DNA from: Candidatus Poribacteria bacterium
GTDB taxonomy: Bacteria > Poribacteria > WGA-4E > WGA-3G
Length of the DNA: 64,000 nucleotides
Assembly: GCA_022827625.1 (NCBI GenBank)
Contig: JAJEIE010000027.1
Span: forward strand, 174,827 to 238,826
Direction of reading: 5' to 3'
Below, piece by piece: positions 48,203 to 64,000 of this stretch; the stretch's first letter is position 1; every line of letters starts with the position of its first letter. The position numbers and the translations under genes were made by a program. Below the pieces are notes generated by a model that searched no databases, was not told where the DNA came from, and was given only the letters and a program-made list of their open reading frames with translations.

Positions 48203-48315
48203 GCTAAATGAGTTAATGGTTCTTAGTTATAAGTTATAAGTCAGAGGCGGGTGAGTCACAATTCACCTTTCTTTGGCGTCCTTGAAGTTGGAATGGGTTT
48301 TTACAGAAACACTCT

Positions 48316-48350
48316 TAACTAATAACCAATAACCAATAACCAATAACTAA
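48316..48350 (+). repeat. Heptamer microsatellite (AACCAAT)x4; a (GTTATAA)x2 repeat also lies at 48225-48241
   Basis: Read directly from the sequence, in the promoter region of the lipoprotein operon. Confidence 0.6.
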
Positions 48351-56700: not shown

Positions 56701-58483
56701 GGGCTTCGTTCATGATACAGGCTTCTACTTGCGCGATACGCTCGCTGAAGTCGTCATAACGTTCCTCAGCAACACCTGGGAGGAAGGCTTCGTCATTAAA
56801 CATGCCGACCGCCTCTCGGTATGCCGCGACAGACTTCTGGAGGTATTCCATGTTGAACTCAGCACCTGCGTCGCCTTCCTGATAGCCTTCAGGTTTGGCG
56901 GCTTCGTAGTAGGAACGTCCTTCAAAGAACTTACCCATCAATTTGACGAGATGGAACTTCGGCAGCGGACGATAATCCCAGAGTTTCGCGTATTCTTCAG
57001 CGGCTTCAACGTACTGTTTGAATTCTGTCCGCTTGATGTCAGCAAACCGGAGTTGAACCTCGGCGGCAAGGATATCGAACTCGTTGTCGTTCTTGTTCTT
57101 GTCGATAAACTCACGTGCCATGGTTTCTAACTCTTCTTTACGACCGAGATCGTTCAAAGCCCAGATTGCACCGTAGAGTGCGTGGGGTGCGACAGGGTCT
57201 TGTGGGAAATTGTCGATCGTTTTCTGATACCACTGCAGTGAGAGTTCAAGGGTCCCCATTCCGGCTTCAGCGTCCCCGGCATTTCTCTGTTCAGTGCCGA
57301 GCTTGTAGTATGCCTCAGCGATTTGATAGGAGCAGTAGGGGATGAAGTCGGTGGATTCTTGGTGTTCATTGATAACGCGTTCGTACGCTACCGTCGCTTG
57401 ACTCCAATTCGACAAGCGGAAGTAACTATCGGCGATACCGAGTTTTGCTTCAGCGATATAGTCGCTCTCAGGGTATTCTTCGAGGAGTGTGGTGTATGAA
57501 ACGATAGCGTTTTCATAGTCGCCTTGGTCGAAGTAGGTACGTCCGATAGCAGACTGGATTTCTGCCTGTAGCATCCGGTCGGCGGTATTTTGGAGTGCCA
57601 ACTCATAGTTGACGCGAGCGTTGTCATAGTCCTTCTGACGGGCGTAAATTGCGCCTTGGTCGAAGTAGGCTGCTGTGACGTATTGGCTTTCCGGGAACTG
57701 CGTAATGAAGTTGGTGTATCTACCGATAGCTTCATCATCTCTACCGAGTTGATTCAAACTATAAGCGGCTTTGTACATCGCTTCGGCTTGCAGGTCTGGA
57801 TAATTTTTGAATTCCTCCGTCGCAATTTTATCGAATTCCTGATAGGCTTGCTCATAGTTCGATTCATTCAGGAATGATTGTGCGATGAGGTGTTGTGCGT
57901 CATCTTTGAAGTCTGAATTCGGGAAACCGTCAAGCACGGCTTTGAATGCTTGTCGGGAGTCTTCATAATTCTGTAATTTGAAGTTCAACTGCCCGATAGC
58001 ATACCATGCGTTCTCGACGAAGAGGCTGTTGGGGAAGTTCTCGATGAGCTGCATGAACTTCGGTTCTGCCAATTCAAACTGCTCGGTACGGTAAAGGATG
58101 TGTCCCCAGAGATAGGTTAATCCCTCTTGGTGTTTAGGGATTGTTGCGGTGGGGGCGACCTTTTCAATGTACTCAATCGCGCTGTCGTAATAATTGACAT
58201 CGCCCGACTGTTCGGCAAGTCTTGAGTAACTCACCGCGATCTTATAGTTAGCGAGGGTTGCGAAGTCCTTGTCAATAACTTCGGTTTTCACGCCTCGTTT
58301 TGTTGATTCGACGAGTGCCTCGGCATACTTTTCAATCGCACCTTCGTAGTCAGCTTGTCCGCGTAAATCTTCAGCGGATTGGTAAAGCTGCTCGACCTTT
58401 TTGGAGCTCCCCATCATAAGAGGCGAGATGAGCGCGATTATCAAGGCAAGACCGCCGATAATTCCCAAAATCCTTGGGTTCAT
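53780..58483 (-). CDS. Very large tetratricopeptide-repeat (TPR) protein, 1567 aa, N-terminally membrane-anchored
   Basis: Has an N-terminal TM 'ILGIIGGLALIIALISPLMMG' and dozens of TPR-like 34-aa repeats (W/LG/Y/A/F/AP pattern). Ends with a Gly-run tail. Confidence 0.8.
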   Translation of the reverse strand: MNPRILGIIGGLALIIALISPLMMGSSKKVEQLYQSAEDLRGQADYEGAIEKYAEALVESTKRGVKTEVIDKDFATLANYKIAVSYSRLAEQSGDVNYYDSAIEYIEKVAPTATIPKHQEGLTYLWGHILYRTEQFELAEPKFMQLIENFPNSLFVENAWYAIGQLNFKLQNYEDSRQAFKAVLDGFPNSDFKDDAQHLIAQSFLNESNYEQAYQEFDKIATEEFKNYPDLQAEAMYKAAYSLNQLGRDDEAIGRYTNFITQFPESQYVTAAYFDQGAIYARQKDYDNARVNYELALQNTADRMLQAEIQSAIGRTYFDQGDYENAIVSYTTLLEEYPESDYIAEAKLGIADSYFRLSNWSQATVAYERVINEHQESTDFIPYCSYQIAEAYYKLGTEQRNAGDAEAGMGTLELSLQWYQKTIDNFPQDPVAPHALYGAIWALNDLGRKEELETMAREFIDKNKNDNEFDILAAEVQLRFADIKRTEFKQYVEAAEEYAKLWDYRPLPKFHLVKLMGKFFEGRSYYEAAKPEGYQEGDAGAEFNMEYLQKSVAAYREAVGMFNDEAFLPGVAEERYDDFSERIAQVEACIMNEALSHEMLGDWGQARDRYASIPETSEYYERALLLVANSHVKQGNQDDAIDYYNSILDKLADADNRSLAEIKLADLLRAEKRFAEAAVQYQAVVDGNPSGEYADDALYLVGLCYYQAATDNPDLLVSSETAFKRVLSDYADSPNAVEAYYGLALAYRDAAQKQNDAEKWPLILQIADEANSKYGSSDNELVLKTLGHIDLIKATAIENSSEEVDVDALVMSLERIVNNTGAPEEARSRSQLKIGHTYYSAKRYDEGLAAYLDFVQKFPNSELAPNAQYQAAVCHYQIAQAATDAGSKQLSLQNAVAAAEKVATLTDDADNLISANYTAGLAKLGLEDNKGAADAFKGVTALEGQTEDEARKALIFQAHSRLAELNATLGDHAASVQEYQYIIENTEDPDMKGRSYFAMAFAQDEQLKAYSEALMSYQNAIELVEDPLVKAQSYYRIGLIYQDQLKQLDRALETFQTLIGEYSGSDNANVASMVADAGIRRSTLYVELGRLDEAIAEAVEARDRTMANPQATVAEKAAAQYNIGFLYSDKARSLFSTEAGTDLQPYIDASRQAAGSFFEVTSIAAPIEKADKETVIPYVQNSLFQAGQIYYSVGIGVKLPQDLTSALTPLTTFVGYVDQGLFPASDGLRKNTETSLNYLAAANFELGRMQVGIDGEMSEKAVNYFIAAGDVFRDMVRRYPSANDAAFWQYHVGESYYAAQQFEKAIEEYDKVRAVNKTHKSAAESLYAISTCAQLLSEAAEKAGDGEARQQWYDRLFEANEALVAEYPNSQYTADALINIGNKYYNAGSEQGVEEAERISFYQMAIENYQKAVDTPGIGNESKSTALNYLNDTANALTFYEYEVATDLLNEAKLASGEAQKPAIEGAIAAYSKIIETYPTTKYADLGLVQIGEAYMVLADSDDTYFNDALDYFNRLWAKYETTPPVDTKVNQALTYAISQIQTIQSYMRANNLEIRGEAAGGGGGGE

Positions 58484-58654
58484 TCGTGTTTCTCCTTGTT
58501 TATTTTCCTACTGTAAGCAGGACTAAGAGATTAGATACATTTCATTTAATCGATTGCTGGCTGTCAGCCTTCGGCTGTCAGCGATCAGTGATAAAGAAAT
58601 CTTCGGTAATCGTCGGTTGTCGACAATGAATTGCCGATAGCCGACTGCCGACGG

Positions 58655-59650
58655 CTATAATTCTATTGAATCGTAAACTTCTGTAATAGAGAGGATTTCC
58701 AGCGGTACATCCAACAATTTCCTGGGAAATCCATCGATTTGGCTCCATTTGCGTTGATATTGTTGAAGTGCCTGCTGTCCTGAGTGGATACCTTGTAGTA
58801 GTAAGAAGGCGTACCTCCCGTCAGTGAGGACCTCCCGTGCTGTTGGATATTCCCGCGATGCCGCTTGGCTCGGCAGTTCTGCGTAGGTTAGCAGTTCTGA
58901 ATCGATATCCAAGGCGACGCTGGGAAGTGTCCCTTTACTATTTTTACGAAGTGTTGTTAGGATATAACCTTCCGCCATGGGTTCATCGGTAAATTGCCAG
59001 ACATCCGAGCTGGAATCAACCATGGGTGTCTCAGTGGTTCGGTTTCTACTGACGTTTCGCCGTATCTCAGCGGGTTGTGCTGCAGCCGTGTCCTGCTGAA
59101 TGGCAAGTGTTGCGCTGGGCTGGCGCGAAACAGGAGTTGACGTAGAAAACAGTTCTGCTTTTGCCACGGCATATAAACGTTGCAGTAGATGTTCATTGTT
59201 GTTACCGGACGTGCCGAGTTTTAAGGCGAAAGGTGCGACAAGAAGTGCCATCATCGCTGCGACGAGTGTATAATAGGGCAGCATCTTTTGTCGGACGGAG
59301 ATGTGTCCTGTCGGGAGGCAGCGATCGATGTACCGGCGGACTCGCGTCGTCAGCTGCCAAGTCAGCCGGGTGCTGATTTCGTAGACGCGTTGATGGAGTG
59401 CGGTGGGGGCACTTTGTTCGATGCGTTGCCGAAGCGTTTTTGTAAACGCTACATAATAGGCATCGGACGCTTCGGGTTCAACGTAGAAGTTTTCGAGGAG
59501 ATGACACGTCTTTTTCAGAGTGATGGCTTCTCGTTTACAGGTCCGACAGGTATCAAGATGTTCAGCGACATCTTGCATCTGACGTTCGGAGAGTGTAGCA
59601 TCGATGTAGTCTGATAAAAGGCGTTGTGTTTTCTGGCACTTGAAGCTCAT
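58655..59650 (-). CDS. Anti-sigma factor (zf-HC2 type) with a single TM and a periplasmic domain
   Basis: Has 'MSFKCQKTQRLLSDYIDATLSERQMQDVAEHLDTCRTCKRE' and a TM 'YYTLVAAMMALLVAPFAL'. An alternative start at 59746 would overlap the sigma gene. Confidence 0.65.
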   Translation of the reverse strand: MSFKCQKTQRLLSDYIDATLSERQMQDVAEHLDTCRTCKREAITLKKTCHLLENFYVEPEASDAYYVAFTKTLRQRIEQSAPTALHQRVYEISTRLTWQLTTRVRRYIDRCLPTGHISVRQKMLPYYTLVAAMMALLVAPFALKLGTSGNNNEHLLQRLYAVAKAELFSTSTPVSRQPSATLAIQQDTAAAQPAEIRRNVSRNRTTETPMVDSSSDVWQFTDEPMAEGYILTTLRKNSKGTLPSVALDIDSELLTYAELPSQAASREYPTAREVLTDGRYAFLLLQGIHSGQQALQQYQRKWSQIDGFPRKLLDVPLEILSITEVYDSIEL

Positions 59651-60314: not shown

Positions 60315-60475
60315 CGAACTTTCTCCTTAAGTGTTCTCAATGTGATTAGACAACGCCTTTTGAAAAACCGTTCAAAAAATTTTTGGCTATTGGCTATTGG
60401 TTGTCGGCAGTGGTTTTACCCAATATCGGTATATTAATGTGTTGATTATAGCATTAATGCAAAAATTGTGTCATT

Positions 60476-60532: not shown

Positions 60533-61189
60533 TTACTCTTTACCCTTGGTTACAAAGGTGACGCTAACATCAAGCGAGTTGCCTGCGGCATCAGAGACTT
60601 TACCTGCGATAACGTAGGTGGTTTCGTTGCCAATCTCTTTACCTTTAACGAGTTCGAGTGTACCTGTGGTGCCGTCAACGGATCCGAGCCAACCGACATC
60701 ATCGCCGGCTTCAGTTTGAAGGGCGATGTTTCCAGTTACTTCTTCACTGAAAGTGATTTCAATCTTGGCATCGGTGTTGATAGCTTCGGGATCGACATCT
60801 TTGTCACCATCGCTAACAGTTCCACCTGTAACAGTCGGTGGGTCCGTATCAGGAGCGGTAACAGTGTAGGTAAGTGTCTGAGTTCCATCTGCCCAAGTAA
60901 TCGTCAAACTCAAGGCACCTGGGGTGAAGGGACCGGCGACAGTCACATTTTTACCAGCAGCCGTAGCGACACCAGCACTCGACGTGACATCGGCAGGTGC
61001 GTTGTCGAAAGTCAGGGTAATACTTGCATTAGCAGCAATCGTTGACCCACTTGGCGGGGCTGCGCTCACGAAGTTGGCTGGAGCAGCTTCCGTATCACCG
61101 TTGTCATCGCTCTCACCACAGCCGGAGAGCATAGAAACGGCGAACAAGGCCGCCAGTAATAGTGCGAAGGTTCTAAACAATTTTGTCAT
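60533..61189 (-). CDS. Lipoprotein with two Ig-like (bacterial Ig/SbsA-like) domains
   Basis: Has a lipobox 'LSGCG'. Thr/Ala/Gly-rich beta modules 'TLTFDNAPADVTS...TYTVTAPDTDPPTV' occur twice. Confidence 0.55.
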   Translation of the reverse strand: MTKLFRTFALLLAALFAVSMLSGCGESDDNGDTEAAPANFVSAAPPSGSTIAANASITLTFDNAPADVTSSAGVATAAGKNVTVAGPFTPGALSLTITWADGTQTLTYTVTAPDTDPPTVTGGTVSDGDKDVDPEAINTDAKIEITFSEEVTGNIALQTEAGDDVGWLGSVDGTTGTLELVKGKEIGNETTYVIAGKVSDAAGNSLDVSVTFVTKGKE

Positions 61190-61820
61190 TAGAGTTAACT
61201 CCTTAAATTTAAGTTATCAAAATACACCCGTTGAAATCGGGTGTGCTAAAAACTTTCGGTGCTTCCCCTATATGTTTGCAAGAATGCACCCGAGGGAAAG
61301 TTAGCTTCCGTATTGTTGTTGATTGTACAATTCAACAGGGATGTTGGAAGCCTACGGTTGTATTCTCGTTCAGTCGAGTAACGTAGGGCTATTTCGTTGT
61401 CGCCCCTTACGGAGTCCGCAAAGAACGAACCGACACGTTGAGAATAGAATTTCGCGAGGACGGCTTGCCAATCGAAACACTATTGGCGAAACACCATTGG
61501 AATGCCGTACATTTCGCCCGAAAGTCAATATCTAAACGAGTACCTTAGAGTTTAACAAAAATTATAAACTCTGTAAAGGTAAAAATACCGGTTTTTTGGG
61601 AATTATACAAAAGTTGCTTTCTTTTGTCAAGAAAAAAACTTATTTTTTGGTAAATTTACCATAAATTTAAACGTTGTCAAGAAAAAAAATGATACACGTC
61701 GTTATGCGGAATCGAATTTAAGGACATTGTTCGATGTATTAAGTATACTATAAAGCGAAAAAAAATGCAAGTTTTTTTAGTAGCGGTTAGCAATCAGAGC
61801 GTTCCGCTGCGCTCCACTCT

Positions 61821-61853
61821 CAGCAGTCAGCAGCCAGCAGTCAGCAGTCAGCG
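61821..61853 (+). repeat. Heptamer microsatellite (CAGCAGT/C)x4.5 immediately 3' of the four-helix-bundle gene
   Basis: The sequence reads cagcagtcagcagccagcagtcagcagtcagcg. Its inverted partner lies at 62296-62318. Confidence 0.7.
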
Positions 61854-61854
61854 A

Positions 61855-62214
61855 TTAGACCTTCGTTCTGATATTTTTTAACAAGGCGGTTAGCATCTTC
61901 TTTATGCTGATGATTTCGTTAATTAATTCAACATATTGATCAGAATTAAGATATTTGAGATCGCGCGCAAGGAGAACGAGATATTCTGTTTCACTTGCGG
62001 AACCGACTGCGATCTGAAGAAAACGCGCGAAGTCCGCAGGAGTTTCTCTCCCGCAACCTTCAGCAATGTTTGTCGGAATTGAAGCACAGGCGCGCCGAGT
62101 TTGGCTTGTTAATCCATATATCTCTTCACGCGGAAATGGAACTGTTAGTTCGTATATCTTCAAAGTGAGTTCATGAGCTCTTTCCCAAACTTGTAATCTT
62201 CTGAAGTTTCGCAT
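61855..62214 (-). CDS. Four-helix-bundle protein (TIGR02436 / 23S rRNA intervening-sequence protein family; Avd-like fold)
   Basis: An RBS 'aaggag' sits 7 nt before the ATG at 62214. The sequence 'MRNFRRLQVWERAHELTLKIYELTVPFPREEIYGLTSQTRRACASIPTNIAEGCGR' matches the family signature. Confidence 0.75.
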   Translation of the reverse strand: MRNFRRLQVWERAHELTLKIYELTVPFPREEIYGLTSQTRRACASIPTNIAEGCGRETPADFARFLQIAVGSASETEYLVLLARDLKYLNSDQYVELINEIISIKKMLTALLKNIRTKV

Positions 62215-62295
62215 ATTTACTCCTTTTTTTATTATGGTAAAGTTTAGAATTACGTGGACATTGGCGAGGTTAGGGAACCTTGTTTGCATAATAGT

Positions 62296-62318
62296 TGACT
62301 TCTGACTGCTGACTGCTG
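62296..62318 (+). repeat. Inverted copy of the heptamer repeat (TGACTTCTGACTGCTGACTGCTG), followed by an 8-bp hairpin GGTTTTTC-gta-GAAAAACC
   Basis: It is the reverse complement of the CAGCAGT units found 3' of the gene. Confidence 0.7.
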
Positions 62319-62357
62319 AAAGGTTTTTCGTAGAAAAACCGCCCTGACTGCTAATTG

Positions 62358-63320
62358 CTATTCCTCAAACAGTCCCATCTGTTCGCTGGATGTGCCCGTC
62401 ATGTATGTTTCGAGCTGCTCTGGATTCAGTAGTACCTCAACGACCTTATCGACTTCCGTGGGTGCGAAGGGGAATGCGCCGCTGCGTATCAAGTCTCGCG
62501 GACCTTCACGTATGGGGGATGCGGGTCCGTCCCATCGGCAGGCGAGGAGTGCTTTGTCTTGGCGTTGGGCGTATCGGGCAGTGTGCATGGCACCGCCGGT
62601 CTGCTGTGCCTCAATGACGATTGTTGCCGTTGCGAGTCCGCTAATAATGCGGTTGCGTTGGATGAGGTTGCCGGGTGAGGGTGTGGTGCGGAAGGGATGC
62701 TCTGAAAACAGACACCCGTTCTCATAGATTTGCATGGCGAGTGAATTATTCTGTGCTGGATAGATAGAAGACAGATCTGTTCCGACGACTCCGATGGTTT
62801 TCCCCATAGCAGCGAGCGCGCCAGAGTGGGCAGCGGCATCGGTCCCGGAGGCGAGTCCGCTGACGATAATGAACCCGGCGGATACCAGTGCTGTCGTGAG
62901 TGTGAGTGTGAGTTGAATTGCCTCTGGGCTGGGCTGCTTTGTGCCTACGATGGCGACGCACGCCGTGTTAATCTCTTTTAATTCACCGACATGGCAGAGA
63001 ATTCCGGGGGCATCGGGGAGGGGCTTGAGTTGTGCTGGATAGGCTGGGTCTTCTGGGCATAGGACGCGGATGTCTTGGTTGTTGAGGGCATCGAGTCGCT
63101 CCCGGAACGTCGGGAAATTCCCAGAGACCGTGAGAATCCGTGTCGCGAGCACAGGGTTGAAGGACGGCAGCCGTGCGATTTCCGGGAGTTCTGCCTCGAA
63201 GATTGCCTTGACGCTTCCGAAACGTGCGATGAGTCGGTTAATCCGGACACTGCCTAACCCTTCAACTGAGGAGAGGGCTAACCAGTATTCAAGGGGTGTT
63301 TTTTTTTCTGAGTCCGCCAT
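62358..63320 (-). CDS. dprA: DNA-processing protein DprA (Smf)
   Basis: Has 'LEYWLALSSVEGLG', 'VAIVGTKQPS' and 'IVSGLASGTDAAAHSGAL'. The start is chosen at 63320; the ATG at 63383 is also possible. Confidence 0.85.
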   Translation of the reverse strand: MADSEKKTPLEYWLALSSVEGLGSVRINRLIARFGSVKAIFEAELPEIARLPSFNPVLATRILTVSGNFPTFRERLDALNNQDIRVLCPEDPAYPAQLKPLPDAPGILCHVGELKEINTACVAIVGTKQPSPEAIQLTLTLTTALVSAGFIIVSGLASGTDAAAHSGALAAMGKTIGVVGTDLSSIYPAQNNSLAMQIYENGCLFSEHPFRTTPSPGNLIQRNRIISGLATATIVIEAQQTGGAMHTARYAQRQDKALLACRWDGPASPIREGPRDLIRSGAFPFAPTEVDKVVEVLLNPEQLETYMTGTSSEQMGLFEE

Positions 63321-63493: not shown

Positions 63494-64000
63494 ATGGAGA
63501 CGGCTCCGATACGGCTGCTGGCAGTCAATGAAATGAGTAGGCATTATGGTGGGGTCATTGCGCTATCGGATGTGACGATGGCGGTGCACCCGGGACAAAT
63601 TTTCAGCTTAATCGGACCTAACGGTGCCGGGAAGACGACGCTCTTCAACTGCGTCACTGGTCTTGATAGCCCAACATTCGGCAGTGTCGATTTCTTAGGG
63701 GAATCCATCACCGGCTTGCGTCCGGACCAGGTTACAAACCTCGGTATCGGTAGGACTTTCCAGAACATCCGCCTCTTCACGGAACTCACAGTCCTTGATA
63801 ACGTCAAAATCGGACGGCATCCTCGCACTTCAAGCAGCTTCATCGGCTCGGTGTTCCGCACAAAGATACAACAGCGGGAGGAGGCGGATATTGCTGCGCG
63901 CGCACACGATATGCTGGCGTTCGTCGGATTGGACGCGTTGAGCGATCAGTCAGCGGGGAACCTCTCCTACGGGGACCAGCGTCGCGTTGAGATCGCAAGA
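63494..64000 (+). CDS. ABC transporter ATP-binding protein (LivG/branched-chain amino acid-type), 3'-truncated at the window edge
   Basis: The Walker A is 'GPNGAGKTT' and the ABC signature is 'LSYGDQRRVEIAR'. The promoter-like TTGACA is upstream. Confidence 0.8.
   Translation, partial: METAPIRLLAVNEMSRHYGGVIALSDVTMAVHPGQIFSLIGPNGAGKTTLFNCVTGLDSPTFGSVDFLGESITGLRPDQVTNLGIGRTFQNIRLFTELTVLDNVKIGRHPRTSSSFIGSVFRTKIQQREEADIAARAHDMLAFVGLDALSDQSAGNLSYGDQRRVEIAR

What the first reader, a model, noticed from the sequence alone, without database searches (positions are those of the whole stretch)
61821..62341. Four-helix-bundle (Avd/IVS-protein-like) gene flanked by inverted (CAGCAGT)n heptamer microsatellites; possible miniature inserted cassette
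A TIGR02436-type four-helix-bundle protein gene has an AAGGAG RBS. This family includes DGR Avd proteins and 23S rRNA intervening-sequence ORFs. The gene is bounded by about 4.5 CAGCAGT units at its 3' side and by the reverse-complement units at its 5' side. A perfect 8-bp hairpin follows the 5'-side repeat. Related CTGACTG/CTGTCAGC-rich reiterations recur in other intergenic regions at 58560-58600 and 60395. Members of this family are known to be multi-copy, and the inverted microsatellite flanks suggest a mobile or recombinogenic unit. No RT or template repeat is seen in the window.
Basis: partly seen in the sequence, partly recalled or inferred. Interest (0 to 1): 0.55.

Follow-up and report, generated by a model that had tools for sequence, protein, structure and literature searches.

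The report
Four-helix-bundle gene cassette with heptamer-repeat arms
A small, well-conserved gene for a ring-forming four-helix-bundle protein sits in a 578-bp unit bounded by inverted 7-base repeat arrays; the unit is present in some related genomes and absent in others, the same gene-plus-repeat layout recurs across at least ten bacterial phyla, and the repeat sequence changes together with one residue of the protein.

Summary
Window 61780-62357 (- strand) is a 578-bp unit in a Candidatus Poribacteria genome. It holds an SD-led 119-aa TIGR02436/PF05635 gene between inverted (TCAGCAG)n arrays, and each arm is interrupted by a small hairpin.

The unit is insertion-polymorphic. Four syntenic Poribacteria genomes lack the gene at the dprA|copC junction, one keeps a 3' remnant, and other species carry such cassettes at livG|livF, livF|lgt and copC|sigE. 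Co-occurring strains differ by exactly two heptamers.

The gene is under purifying selection (dN/dS about 0.05-0.1). The arms are predicted to pair into a long stem enclosing the ORF (z = -6.5), as in S23p-encoding 23S rRNA intervening sequences.

The layout is general. In 80 loci from about ten phyla, 63% of intergenic regions touching the gene carry period-7 arrays, against 14% elsewhere. All 9 IMG/VR homologues have them too.

Most cores fit T-N-R-G-Y. Protein residue 2 is K/R when Y is C and Q when Y is T (Fisher p = 4e-5 after clustering), which hints at direct recognition.

The reverse does not hold: most heptamer arrays have no such gene nearby. The gene scores far below the Avd model cut-off and no RT was seen nearby. 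I found no paper linking these genes to heptamer repeats.

The parts
61780..62357 (-). Whole cassette: the variable segment between the dprA stop codon and the conserved TAAAAAAACTTGC... sequence upstream of the copC promoters
   Evidence: Boundaries come from aligning the window with syntenic genomes that lack the gene (L089-L092). The same homology block recurs at another site in RHO3_bin_69.
61855..62214 (-). Four-helix-bundle protein gene (119 aa plus stop), S23p / TIGR02436 / PF05635 family
   Evidence: Family matches. PDB 2GSC matches by sequence at E 3e-22. The AF2 model has pLDDT 91.7 and four helices. Foldseek gives TM 0.91 to 2GSC. dN/dS is 0.05-0.09 against paralogues.
62220..62225 (-). 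Shine-Dalgarno AAGGAG, 5 nt upstream of the ATG
   Evidence: Read directly from the sequence.
62296..62319 (-). 5' arm, inner heptamer array: CAGCAGT/TCAGCAG units in gene sense, 3.4 copies
62322..62340 (-). 5' arm hairpin, 8-bp stem with a 3-nt loop (TAC in gene sense). Hairpins of this kind recur inside TCAG-type arrays.
   Evidence: One search lists about 15 Poribacteria copies with different stems and the same TAC/TGC loop and context.
62343..62357 (-). 5' arm, outer heptamer-like units (CAATTAG CAGTCAG G in gene sense), directly after the dprA stop codon
61820..61852 (-). 3' arm, inner heptamer array (CTGACTG units in gene sense, reverse complement of the 5' arm), 4.7 copies. Strains L001 and L004 lack 14 nt (about 61834-61847).
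61797..61814 (-). 3' arm hairpin module GAGCG-CAGCGGAA-CGCTC. The ..GCAGCGGAACG.. motif is shared with cassettes in L009, L010 and L089.
61780..61796 (-). 3' arm, outer heptamer-like units (TGATTGCTAACCGCTAC in gene sense); right end of the cassette
62358..63320 (-). dprA, the upstream co-directional gene and the likely source of read-through transcription into the cassette
   Evidence: PF02481 E 1.2e-57. No promoter-like site lies on the gene strand between dprA and the 4HB ATG.
61602..61680 (-). Two sigma-70-type promoters (TTGACA-17-TATAAT and TTGACA-16-TAAATT) just downstream of the cassette. They serve the copC-like gene, are not part of the cassette, and are conserved in genomes without it.

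Best explanation
Window 61780-62357 is an insertion-polymorphic gene cassette built like an rRNA intervening sequence.

Shown:
- It carries a promoterless, SD-led gene for an S23p/TIGR02436 four-helix-bundle protein. This family forms pentameric rings in crystals and is distantly related to DGR Avd.
- The gene is bracketed by inverted arrays of a 7-nt unit (TCAGCAG, of the general form T-N-R-G-Y + 2 nt). Each arm holds a small hairpin.
- The unit lies immediately after the dprA stop codon and before the copC promoters.
- The gene is under strong purifying selection.
- The arrays change length by whole heptamers among strains.
- Gene plus arms is present, decayed or absent at the same junction in syntenic genomes, and occupies other junctions elsewhere.
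- The gene-plus-inverted-heptamer layout, co-oriented with the flanking genes, holds across about ten phyla.
- The arm core sequence tracks the protein subclade and residue 2 of the protein.

Inferred:
1. The gene is transcribed by read-through from dprA.
2. In that transcript the two arms pair into a stem of about 50 bp that encloses the ORF. As in S23p-encoding 23S rRNA intervening sequences, this stem is a likely RNase III substrate, which would separate the 4HB mRNA from dprA.
3. The protein ring binds its own arm repeats sequence-specifically, plausibly one heptamer per protomer. This would be analogous to element-encoded proteins that bind subterminal repeats at both transposon ends.
4. 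Gain and loss happen by recombination or slippage at heptamer arrays, or by an unidentified trans-acting enzyme, because the cassette encodes no recognisable recombinase.
5. Heptamer palindromes without a gene are remnants or non-autonomous relatives.
For: Anatomy.

Organism and strain variants:
- The protein is found on Poribacteria MAG contigs.
- Seven strain contigs are identical across the unit except for a 14-nt (two-unit) indel in the 3' array and one SNP.

Empty, decayed and filled sites:
- L089-L092 (DprA 94-84% identical) keep the order lgt-livF-livG/dprA-copC-sigE.
- Between the dprA stop and ...GCCAT|TAAAAAACTTGC they hold 18 nt, 32 nt or about 85 nt of heptamers, or about 290 nt with a 3' gene remnant (...SIKKILTALLKKIRTK).

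Other junctions:
- livG and livF overlap by 8 nt in the window genome, L026 and L009, but are split by a cassette in L012, L014, L019, L222 and L226.
- livF|lgt is filled in L026.
- RHO3_bin_69 has three copies within 10 kb, and two of them at different sites share arm modules.

Selection: dN/dS 0.05-0.09; median 0.11 over 34 pairs.

Stem:
- The MFE fold pairs the termini, -180.6 kcal/mol, z = -6.5, 0 of 100 shuffles as good.
- Over 76 loci, own-flank duplex energy averages -58.8, against -45.9 for mismatched loci and -41.1 for shuffles (p = 4e-9 and 3e-13).

Generality:
- Period-7 arrays lie within 200 nt of the gene in 63 of 80 loci; periods 6 and 8-12 give none.
- 83 of 132 intergenic regions touching the gene carry an array, against 25 of 173 others.
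- The upstream neighbour is co-directional in 68 of 75 loci and the downstream one in 68 of 80.
- Polarity: TCAGY 132 vs RCTGA 68 upstream; 21 vs 157 downstream.
- 9 of 9 IMG/VR homologues have arrays.

Co-variation:
- The core type follows protein subclades across phyla.
- Cross-phylum Spearman is 0.14, reached by 0 of 2000 permutations.
- Residue 2 is K/R with RGC in 44 loci vs 3, and Q with RGT in 26 vs 1. By clusters the table is 25/2/1/7, Fisher p = 4e-5.
- Q2 proteins outside Poribacteria mostly have K/R2 proteins as nearest neighbours.

Fold and family:
- TM 0.91 to the pentameric XCC0516 structure.
- Co-varying residues 2, 57, 59 and 109 sit at the same bundle end as the invariant NIAEGCG loop.

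Precedents from papers:
- The Coxiella IVS is a 428-nt element with an S23p ORF and a 28-bp terminal stem cut by RNase III (PMC4990558).
- The Avd pentamer binds a defined RNA element (bioRxiv 10.1101/2023.10.23.563531).
Against: - No recombinase, transposase or RT lies in the cassette or within 10 kb, and no target-site duplication is visible at the boundaries. Mobility is therefore inferred from presence/absence only.
- The reverse association is weak. Of 80 metagenome loci selected for (TCAGCNN)x5, only 2 have a 4HB gene nearby, and none of the 38 with at least 600 nt on both sides. About 14% of other intergenic regions in these genomes also carry arrays. Arrays are therefore a wider intergenic element and not only cassette ends.
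- Empty sites carry heptamers of a different unit (CGAACCG in L090 and L091), which simple decay of the same cassette does not explain.
- The residue-2 rule has exceptions: L055/56, L057, L067, L077b and L045b.
- Within Poribacteria, non-orthologous pairs show no significant protein-arm correlation.
- The phylogenetic correction is crude (clustering at 72% identity).
- Array lengths, median about 3-3.7 units, do not peak at five.
- RNase III cleavage, transcription and binding are untested.
- Flanks share direct as well as inverted similarity, because many upstream arms are themselves palindromes.
Confidence: 0.6

Rival explanations
1. The 4HB protein is mainly a trans-acting, sequence-specific heptamer-repeat-binding regulator, in the manner of a TRAP-like ring that wraps RNA or ssDNA. 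The flanking arrays would be its autoregulatory sites, and the many arrays elsewhere (often abutting start codons) its regulon. Presence/absence would then reflect ordinary gain and loss of a regulator paralogue, not a mobile unit.
For: - Protein-repeat co-variation.
- Arrays far outnumber the genes.
- Arrays lie preferentially in RCTGA sense directly before start codons, 32 vs 12, and many are 1-10 nt from the ATG. This matches the TAACTGA repeats of Beggiatoaceae, Cyanobacteria and Bacteroidetes (PMC4679880).
- Nostoc workers postulate an unidentified heptamer-binding protein (bioRxiv 10.1101/2022.06.06.494920).
- The ring-shaped pentamer fold.
- Different paralogues in one genome have different arm units.
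Against: - Regulators seldom need binding sites on both sides of their own gene in strictly inverted polarity.
- Arm modules, hairpins included, travel with the gene to new junctions.
- Insertion between overlapping genes (livG|livF) brings arrays to a site that had none.
- This reading is not exclusive of the cassette explanation.
Confidence: 0.25
2. The association is incidental. Heptamer microsatellites arise by polymerase slippage in any short intergenic spacer of these genomes, and a small gene inserted in an operon simply creates two such spacers. The arms would have no functional or historical link to the gene.
For: [quoted passage not shown]
- 14% of other intergenic regions in the same loci have arrays.
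- Whole-unit indels occur among strains.
- Most arrays lack a 4HB gene.
Against: - 63% vs 14% per intergenic region.
- Consistent inverted polarity.
- Flank complementarity above mismatched-locus and shuffle controls.
- A conserved T-N-R-G-Y core in 65 of 88 loci across phyla.
- The core type follows the protein clade and residue 2.
- Arm modules are shared by copies at different sites.
Confidence: 0.07
3. The gene is an orphan accessory variability determinant (Avd) of a diversity-generating retroelement located elsewhere in the genome.
For: Weak similarity only:
- bAvd Pfam E 1.3e-4.
- NF033474 E 7.7e-4.
- PHROG 3206 'Avd protein of DGR' E 1.3e-9.
- The fold matches Avd at TM 0.78.
Against: - Both Avd models score far below their curated cut-offs: 22.8 vs 40 bits and 19.7 vs 80 bits.
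- Identity to Avd is only 10-11%.
- No RVT-family gene lies within 10 kb on either side.
- No RT-like motif context appears in any window ORF.
- The gene is multi-copy, in operon junctions, with heptamer arms, none of which is a DGR feature.
Confidence: 0.03

Closest known systems
23S rRNA intervening sequences that encode S23p (Leptospira, Coxiella burnetii, Brucella)
   Same: Same protein family (PF05635/TIGR02436). Similar size (428-nt element in Coxiella, 578 nt here). The ORF is enclosed by terminal inverted repeats that form a long stem. Distribution is sporadic and horizontally acquired, and no recombinase is encoded (PMC4990558).
   Different: The unit is not in an rRNA gene. It lies between protein-coding genes, co-oriented within operons. 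Its arms are tandem heptamer arrays with embedded hairpins rather than a unique inverted repeat. It has a strong SD and is under purifying selection, whereas the Coxiella S23p is reported as probably not made. RNase III processing is untested here.
Intergenic heptanucleotide repeat arrays: cyanobacterial STRR, TAACTGA repeats of Beggiatoaceae/Cyanobacteria/Bacteroidetes, GGGAATC/GGGGATT repeats of Xanthomonas/Nostoc
   Same: Tandem 7-nt units, about 2-6 copies, intergenic, often abutting start codons, variable between close relatives, and with related units such as CAGT-nnn and CTGA-nnn (PMC4679880, PMC4692102).
   Different: In the text I searched or read, none of these papers links the repeats to four-helix-bundle genes. 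Here the arrays occur as an inverted pair around one gene family, and their core co-varies with that protein.
DGR accessory protein Avd (Bordetella phage BPP-1 bAvd)
   Same: Four-helix-bundle fold and a pentameric ring. It binds a defined RNA element in the RT-Avd RNP.
   Different: 10-11% identity; scores below the family cut-offs; no RT, TR or VR nearby; stand-alone multi-copy genes with heptamer arms.
Transposons whose element-encoded protein binds subterminal repeats at both ends, with gene-less MITE-like derivatives; REP/REPIN-RAYT systems
   Same: Reiterated short motifs in inverted orientation at both ends of a unit that encodes a protein. Gene-less palindromic derivatives are much more numerous than the gene. 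Presence/absence polymorphism occurs. The REPIN precedent is PMC3116915, seen as a title and abstract only; the comparison itself rests on general knowledge of these systems.
   Different: No catalytic transposase fold or motif is recognisable in a 119-aa helical bundle. No target-site duplication is seen. The mechanism is unknown.

Membership tests
TIGR02436 / PF05635 four-helix-bundle (S23p) family | Profile HMM score above the curated cut-off | tested here: met
   PF05635 135.6 bits against a cut-off of 33.8; TIGR02436 132.7 bits against 24.
TIGR02436 / PF05635 four-helix-bundle (S23p) family | Up-down four-helix-bundle fold like XCC0516 / BT_0352 | tested here: met
   AF2 model pLDDT 91.7, four helices. 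Foldseek TM 0.91 to 2GSC and 0.80 to 2RLD.
TIGR02436 / PF05635 four-helix-bundle (S23p) family | Homopentameric ring | not testable with these tools
   Only inferred. 2GSC and 2RLD each have five chains, and PMC4990558 cites the pentameric toroid.
DGR Avd | Score above the cut-off for the Avd equivalog / bAvd Pfam model | tested here: not met
   NF033474 19.7 bits against 80; PF22296 22.8 bits against 40.
DGR Avd | Adjacent reverse transcriptase with a TR/VR pair | tested here: not met
   No RVT Pfam in called genes within 10 kb on either side. No RT-like motif context in window ORFs. The rest of the genome was not searchable.
23S rRNA intervening sequence (IVS) | Located inside a 23S rRNA helix | tested here: not met
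   The unit lies between dprA and a copC-like gene. Rfam finds no match in 61100-62500.
23S rRNA intervening sequence (IVS) | Terminal complementary sequences forming a stem that encloses the element | tested here: met
   Predicted closing stem, z = -6.5. Flank complementarity is general over 76 loci.
23S rRNA intervening sequence (IVS) | Excision by RNase III | not testable with these tools
   No transcript data are available.
Heptanucleotide SSR / STRR-type arrays | Tandem 7-nt units in intergenic DNA with copy-number variation | tested here: met
   TRF period 7. A 14-nt indel among strains. Only period 7 is enriched.
Autonomous transposon / IS or MITE | Transposase gene, or terminal inverted repeats with a target-site duplication | tested here: inconclusive
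   Inverted arms are present. No transposase is found. No duplication is visible at filled versus empty junctions.
Integron gene cassette | attC site, and an array next to an integrase/attI | tested here: not met
   Single cassettes are scattered within operons. No integrase appears among the neighbours.
Known anti-phage defence systems (PADLOC) | Match to a defence-system protein model | tested here: not met
   0 families at E <= 0.01.

The most novel reading that the evidence does not exclude
TIGR02436 four-helix-bundle pentamers are the missing sequence-specific binding proteins of bacterial heptamer-repeat arrays (STRR, TAACTGA, GGGAATC and similar). Each protomer would read one T-N-R-G-Y heptamer through the bundle end formed by the N-terminus, the invariant NIAEGCG loop and the C-terminal helix. 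The code would be simple: residue 2 K/R for C and Q for T, and residue 109 for core position 2. Each paralogue would be embedded in arrays of its own cognate unit. Gene plus arms would then form a minimal self-recognising mobile module, the gene-less heptamer palindromes would be its non-autonomous derivatives, and the S23p-encoding rRNA intervening sequences would be a special case of the same element.
Probability: 0.3. Interest if true: 0.9.

Novelty: new variant of a known kind. Interest (0 to 1): 0.78.

Why it matters
Two long-standing puzzles would be joined.

1. Tandem heptanucleotide repeats in bacterial intergenic regions have been reported for decades in cyanobacteria, and later in Xanthomonas, Beggiatoaceae and Bacteroidetes. 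They are statistically over-represented, yet they have no established origin, function or binding protein.
2. The very widespread, multi-copy 'four helix bundle protein' / S23p family, solved structurally in 2006-2007, has no known function outside DGR Avd.

The results here show that these genes are almost always bracketed by inverted heptamer arrays, that gene plus arms comes and goes as a unit, and that the repeat core co-varies with one residue of the protein. This gives a directly testable hypothesis for both puzzles: protein-repeat recognition, and an IVS-like mobile module. It also suggests an origin for the ORF-containing rRNA intervening sequences. If a simple recognition code holds, the family could be a programmable repeat-binding scaffold.

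Tried and rejected
- **DGR reading.** Rejected on model scores and the absence of an RT.
- **Known RNA families.** Rfam at E <= 1 gave nothing in 61100-62500.
- **Defence systems.** PADLOC gave nothing.
- **Own promoter.** No promoter-like site on the gene strand upstream of the ATG; the strong promoters found belong to copC.
- **First array detector.** A strict threshold of 19/21 or 13/14 matches at lag 7 missed most arrays, because 2 of the 7 positions vary. It was replaced by '5-mer x3 at period 7'.
- **Direct versus inverted flanks.** Classifying flanks by shared 6-mers was uninformative: unrelated loci share TCAGC-type words, and many upstream arms are palindromes.
- **Arrays as markers of the gene.** Rejected by the reverse test: 2 of 80 array loci have the gene.
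- **Arrays as a prerequisite target.** Weakened by livG|livF, where the empty state is an 8-nt gene overlap with no heptamers.
- **Array length of five units.** The expectation that arrays would peak at five units, matching a pentamer, is not supported.
- **Protein-arm correlation within Poribacteria.** Not significant at non-orthologous sites.
- **Target-site duplications.** None seen.
- **Genome-wide copy count.** Not possible.
- **Literature.** Seven searches found no paper linking PF05635/TIGR02436/S23p genes to heptamer repeats. The library lacks most subscription journals, so absence is not proof.
Full report
**1. What is in the window**

The finding's region holds one ORF on the minus strand, 61855-62214, of 119 aa. 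An AAGGAG lies 5 nt upstream of its ATG.

- It matches PF05635 (23S_rRNA_IVP, 135.6 bits, cut-off 33.8) and TIGR02436 (132.7 bits).
- The two Avd models score far below their cut-offs: bAvd 22.8 against 40, NF033474 19.7 against 80.
- It is the only such gene in the window (tblastn).

Read in gene sense, the unit is laid out as follows:

- dprA stop codon
- CAATTAG CAGTCAG G
- hairpin GGTTTTTC-TAC-GAAAAACC
- TTTCAGC AGTCAGC AGTCAGA AGTCAAC
- about 90 nt, then the RBS and the ORF
- TCG (CTGACTG)x4.7
- hairpin GAGCG-CAGCGGAA-CGCTC
- TGATTGCTAACCGCTAC
- then TAAAAAAACTTGC...

Tandem Repeats Finder reports both arrays with period 7 (61820-61852, 4.7 copies; 62296-62319, 3.4 copies). The 14-mer occurs 6 times against 0.21 expected, and only in these arrays.

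**2. Source and strain variation**

The exact protein occurs on 16 contigs of Candidatus Poribacteria MAGs (KELL22-1 metagenomes; GCA_022824625.1) with the same neighbours.

- Across the cassette, seven strain-level contigs are identical except for one SNP and a 14-nt, two-heptamer indel in the 3' array. The array therefore behaves as a slipping microsatellite.
- The livF|lgt junction of the same strains varies from 24 nt (three heptamers) to more than 60 nt of CGAACCG-type units.
- The antisigma|TPR spacer (window 58483-58670) exists as a heptamer-rich allele and as an unrelated allele.

**3. Presence/absence at the window's own site**

Four Poribacteria genomes have DprA 94, 89, 88 and 84% identical to the window's. 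All keep the order lgt-livF-livG / dprA-copC-sigE-antisigma-TPR, and none has an intact 4HB gene after dprA.

Aligned to the window, the left boundary is the dprA stop codon. The right boundary is sharp, at ...GCCAT|TAAAAAACTTGC. The content between the boundaries is as follows:

| Locus | Content between the boundaries |
|---|---|
| L090 | 18 nt: CGAACCG CGAATCG CCAT |
| L091 | 32 nt of the same kind of unit |
| L092 | about 85 nt, a heptamer palindrome of other units |
| L089 | about 290 nt: heptamers, hairpin modules and a 3' remnant of the gene (...SIKKILTALLKKIRTK) |
| Window | 578 nt, full cassette |
| L010 | full cassette |

That condition is not met; the opposite holds.

**4. Other junctions**

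- livG|livF. In the window's genome and in L026 and L009, livG and livF overlap by 8 nt. In L012, L014, L019, L222 and L226/L227 a cassette (heptamer palindrome, RBS, 4HB gene, heptamer array) sits exactly between them.
- livF|lgt. The junction is 6 nt in L014 and three heptamers in the window genome. In L009 it is about 190 nt of heptamer palindromes with hairpins. In L026 it is a full cassette.
- RHO3_bin_69. This genome has three copies within 10 kb: near lgt, after dprA, and between copC and sigE. The window has only a (TTGGCTA)2.6 array at the copC|sigE position, 60383-60400.
- Arm modules. The copy near lgt is 91% identical to the window protein, more than the positional orthologue (80%). 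It shares the 5' hairpin and the 3' ...AGCGGAACG... module with the dprA-site copy, and homology ends at ...CTGCCAT. Arm modules therefore accompany the gene to different sites.
- Second or tandem copies also occur in L031, L045 and L077.

**5. The gene is functional**

- dN/dS is 0.05-0.09 between the window gene and its paralogues. The median is 0.11 over 34 pairs.
- The AF2 model (pLDDT 91.7) has helices at 8-24, 35-54, 59-85 and 91-118.
- It superposes on XCC0516 (2GSC, TM 0.91, 43% identity), on BT_0352 (2RLD, TM 0.80), and more distantly on Avd (4DWL/8UBE, TM 0.78, 10-11% identity).
- XCC0516 is described as a homopentameric toroid (PMC4990558).

**6. Expression and RNA structure (inferred)**

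- No sigma-70-like site lies on the gene strand between dprA and the ATG. Two strong promoters just downstream of the cassette serve copC and are conserved in genomes without the cassette. Read-through from dprA is the simplest source of transcription.
- Folded as RNA, 61770-62360 pairs its two ends into a long imperfect stem enclosing the ORF (-180.6 kcal/mol, z = -6.5).
- Over 76 loci the upstream and downstream flanks are more complementary (mean -58.8 kcal/mol) than flanks from different loci (-45.9) or shuffles (-41.1).
- This is the architecture of the S23p-encoding Coxiella IVS, where a 28-bp terminal stem is cut by RNase III. Rfam has no match here.

**7. Generality**

A scan of one genome per species returned 80 loci with relatives of the protein. 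They include 29 from Poribacteria. The rest come from Chloroflexota, Acidobacteriota, Bacteroidota, Planctomycetota, Verrucomicrobiota, Nitrospirota, Spirochaetota, Ignavibacteria, SAR324, a deltaproteobacterium and a cyanobacterium. By eye nearly all are flanked by heptamer arrays.

Counts using '5-mer x3 at period P':

- Period 7 gives arrays within 200 nt of the gene in 63 of 80 loci, on both sides in 38.
- Array density is 3.0-3.4 per kb near the gene against 0.15 per kb elsewhere.
- Periods 6 and 8-12 give none near the gene.
- Per intergenic region, 83 of 132 regions touching the gene carry an array, against 25 of 173 others.
- The cassette is co-oriented with its upstream neighbour in 68 of 75 loci and with its downstream neighbour in 68 of 80, with short gaps.
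- Polarity is strong: TCAGY 132 vs RCTGA 68 upstream, 21 vs 157 downstream.
- All 9 homologues found in IMG/VR contigs, down to 37% identity, also have inverted heptamer arms.

**8. The reverse test**

I selected 80 metagenome loci for (TCAGCNN)x5. Only 2 have a 4HB gene nearby, and none of the 38 loci with at least 600 nt on both sides does.

Such arrays tend to lie in RCTGA sense directly before start codons (32 vs 12), like the TAACTGA repeats described by MacGregor.

Heptamer arrays are therefore a broader intergenic element. The 4HB gene almost always lives in them, but most arrays have no gene. Gene-less heptamer palindromes, such as window 48225-48347, could be remnants, non-autonomous relatives or independent elements. 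I could not decide among these.

**9. Protein-repeat co-variation**

I pooled each upstream flank with the reverse complement of its downstream flank.

- 65 of 88 loci have a periodic core fitting T-N-R-G-Y:

| Core | Loci |
|---|---|
| TCAGC | 27 |
| TCAGT | 8 |
| TTAGC | 8 |
| TAAGT | 7 |
| TCGGC | 6 |
| TGAGC | 4 |
| TCGGT | 3 |
| TAAGC | 2 |
| TTAGT | 1 |

- In a neighbour-joining tree the core follows protein subclades across phyla. TGAGC is found in Bacteroidota and Planctomycetota. TTAGC is found in Bacteroidota, Cyanobacteria, Planctomycetota and Verrucomicrobiota. TCAGT is found in Chloroflexota and Planctomycetota.
- Cross-phylum protein identity predicts core sharing (Spearman 0.14, reached by 0 of 2000 permutations). 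Within Poribacteria, non-orthologous pairs do not show this.
- The sharpest signal is residue 2. It is K/R when the base after the conserved G is C (44 loci vs 3) and Q when it is T (26 vs 1). After collapsing to 72%-identity clusters the table is 25/2/1/7, Fisher p = 4e-5.
- Q2 proteins outside Poribacteria mostly have K/R2 proteins as nearest neighbours, so Q2 appears polyphyletic.
- Additional loci mostly agree: L096, L129, L222, L224 and L226. The exceptions are L055/56, L057, L067, L077b and L045b.
- Residues 2, 57, 59 and 109 lie at the same end of the bundle as the invariant NIAEGCG loop.
- Arg with C and Gln with U/T matches known single-strand recognition rules such as the PUF code. 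Arg-G and Gln-A on the opposite strand would match the usual duplex rules. Both comparisons rest on my own knowledge.

I treat this as suggestive evidence that the protein reads its arm repeats. The phylogenetic control is crude.

**10. Mechanism and rivals**

The best-supported reading is an insertion-polymorphic, IVS-like cassette whose arms belong to it. It is probably transcribed by read-through and closed by an arm-arm stem. Its ring-forming protein probably binds the arm repeats. How it moves is unknown.

- Nothing nearby resembles a recombinase or an RT.
- No target-site duplication is visible.
- Recombination or slippage at arrays, or a trans-acting enzyme, are the candidates.

A regulator-with-operators reading is compatible with much of the evidence and is not exclusive of the cassette reading. 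A purely incidental microsatellite reading is contradicted by polarity, enrichment, core conservation and co-variation. A DGR-Avd reading fails its membership tests.

**11. Novelty**

Each piece is known separately:

- multi-copy S23p/TIGR02436 genes;
- S23p ORFs in rRNA intervening sequences;
- unexplained intergenic heptamer repeats.

Seven full-text searches found no paper connecting the gene family with heptamer arrays. One preprint explicitly calls for identification of the heptamer-binding protein. I therefore rate this as a new variant of a known kind. There is a realistic chance (about 0.3) that it exposes a new protein-repeat recognition system.

Noticed in passing
window 48225-48347: A gene-less heptamer palindrome lies in an intergenic region. 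Its structure is (AGTTATA)2.4-TCAGAGG, about 70 nt, then CTCTTAA-(TAACCAA)4.6. It has the same arm architecture as the cassette but no ORF.
   Followed up: partly
window 58483-58670 (antisigma|TPR spacer); L001-L008: Near-identical strains carry two unrelated alleles of this roughly 170-nt spacer. One is heptamer-rich (GCCGA and TCAGC-type units, as in the window) and the other has no heptamers. The boundaries of the replacement are sharp.
   Followed up: partly
window 60383-60400 (copC|sigE spacer); L010 2787-3640: The window has only a (TTGGCTA)2.6 array at this position. RHO3_bin_69 has a complete 4HB cassette at the same position, and its right-hand array aligns with the window's array.
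   Followed up: partly
window 62322-62340; L009, L010, L012, L019, L024, L030, L222: Small perfect hairpins (6-9 bp stems of differing sequence, loop TAC/TGC) are embedded in TCAG-type arrays. The context is constant..TCAGnnC-[stem]-TRC-[stem']-TTTCAG... There are three tandem copies in L012 at 313-410. They look like a tiny structured element that rides in the arrays.
   Followed up: partly
window 61797-61814; L009, L010, L089: A second recurrent arm module contains ..GCAGCGGAACG.. In relatives it is preceded by a roughly 40-nt segment (GAGAGTCGGGGAATGCCACACGGCATTCATACCGTTGATTCAG) that is deleted in the window.
   Followed up: partly
L001/L004 vs L005, livF|lgt junction (outside the window; about 950 nt beyond window position 64000): The spacer is TAG CGGTTCG CGAATCG CGAGTAAAAA ATG in some strains and a CGAACCG-type array of more than 60 nt in the NCBI MAG of the same species. 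In L026 the same junction holds a full cassette with the same unit in direct orientation on both sides.
   Followed up: partly
L038, L040, L044, L045, L049, L052, L066 (Anaerolineales): A TATAAT box lies about 7 nt before the 4HB ATG, which suggests a leaderless transcript. The start codon of the downstream FAD-oxidoreductase-like gene lies inside the downstream heptamer array.
   Followed up: no
window 61190-61600: A non-coding leader of about 410 nt lies between the copC promoters and the copC-like gene. It is well conserved between the window and RHO3_bin_69 and has no Rfam match. It could be an uncharacterised regulatory RNA.
   Followed up: no
L031 2564-2909 and 3001-3348: Two 4HB cassettes lie in tandem, separated by CGAACCG/GCGATTA arrays. 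The upstream copy is a pseudogene with a frameshift and a stop.
   Followed up: no
L026 3340-3400: The 4HB ORF runs into the downstream heptamer array, which encodes its last residues and its stop codon. Because 7 is not a multiple of 3, any stop or start triplet in a unit is offered in all three frames within three units.
   Followed up: no
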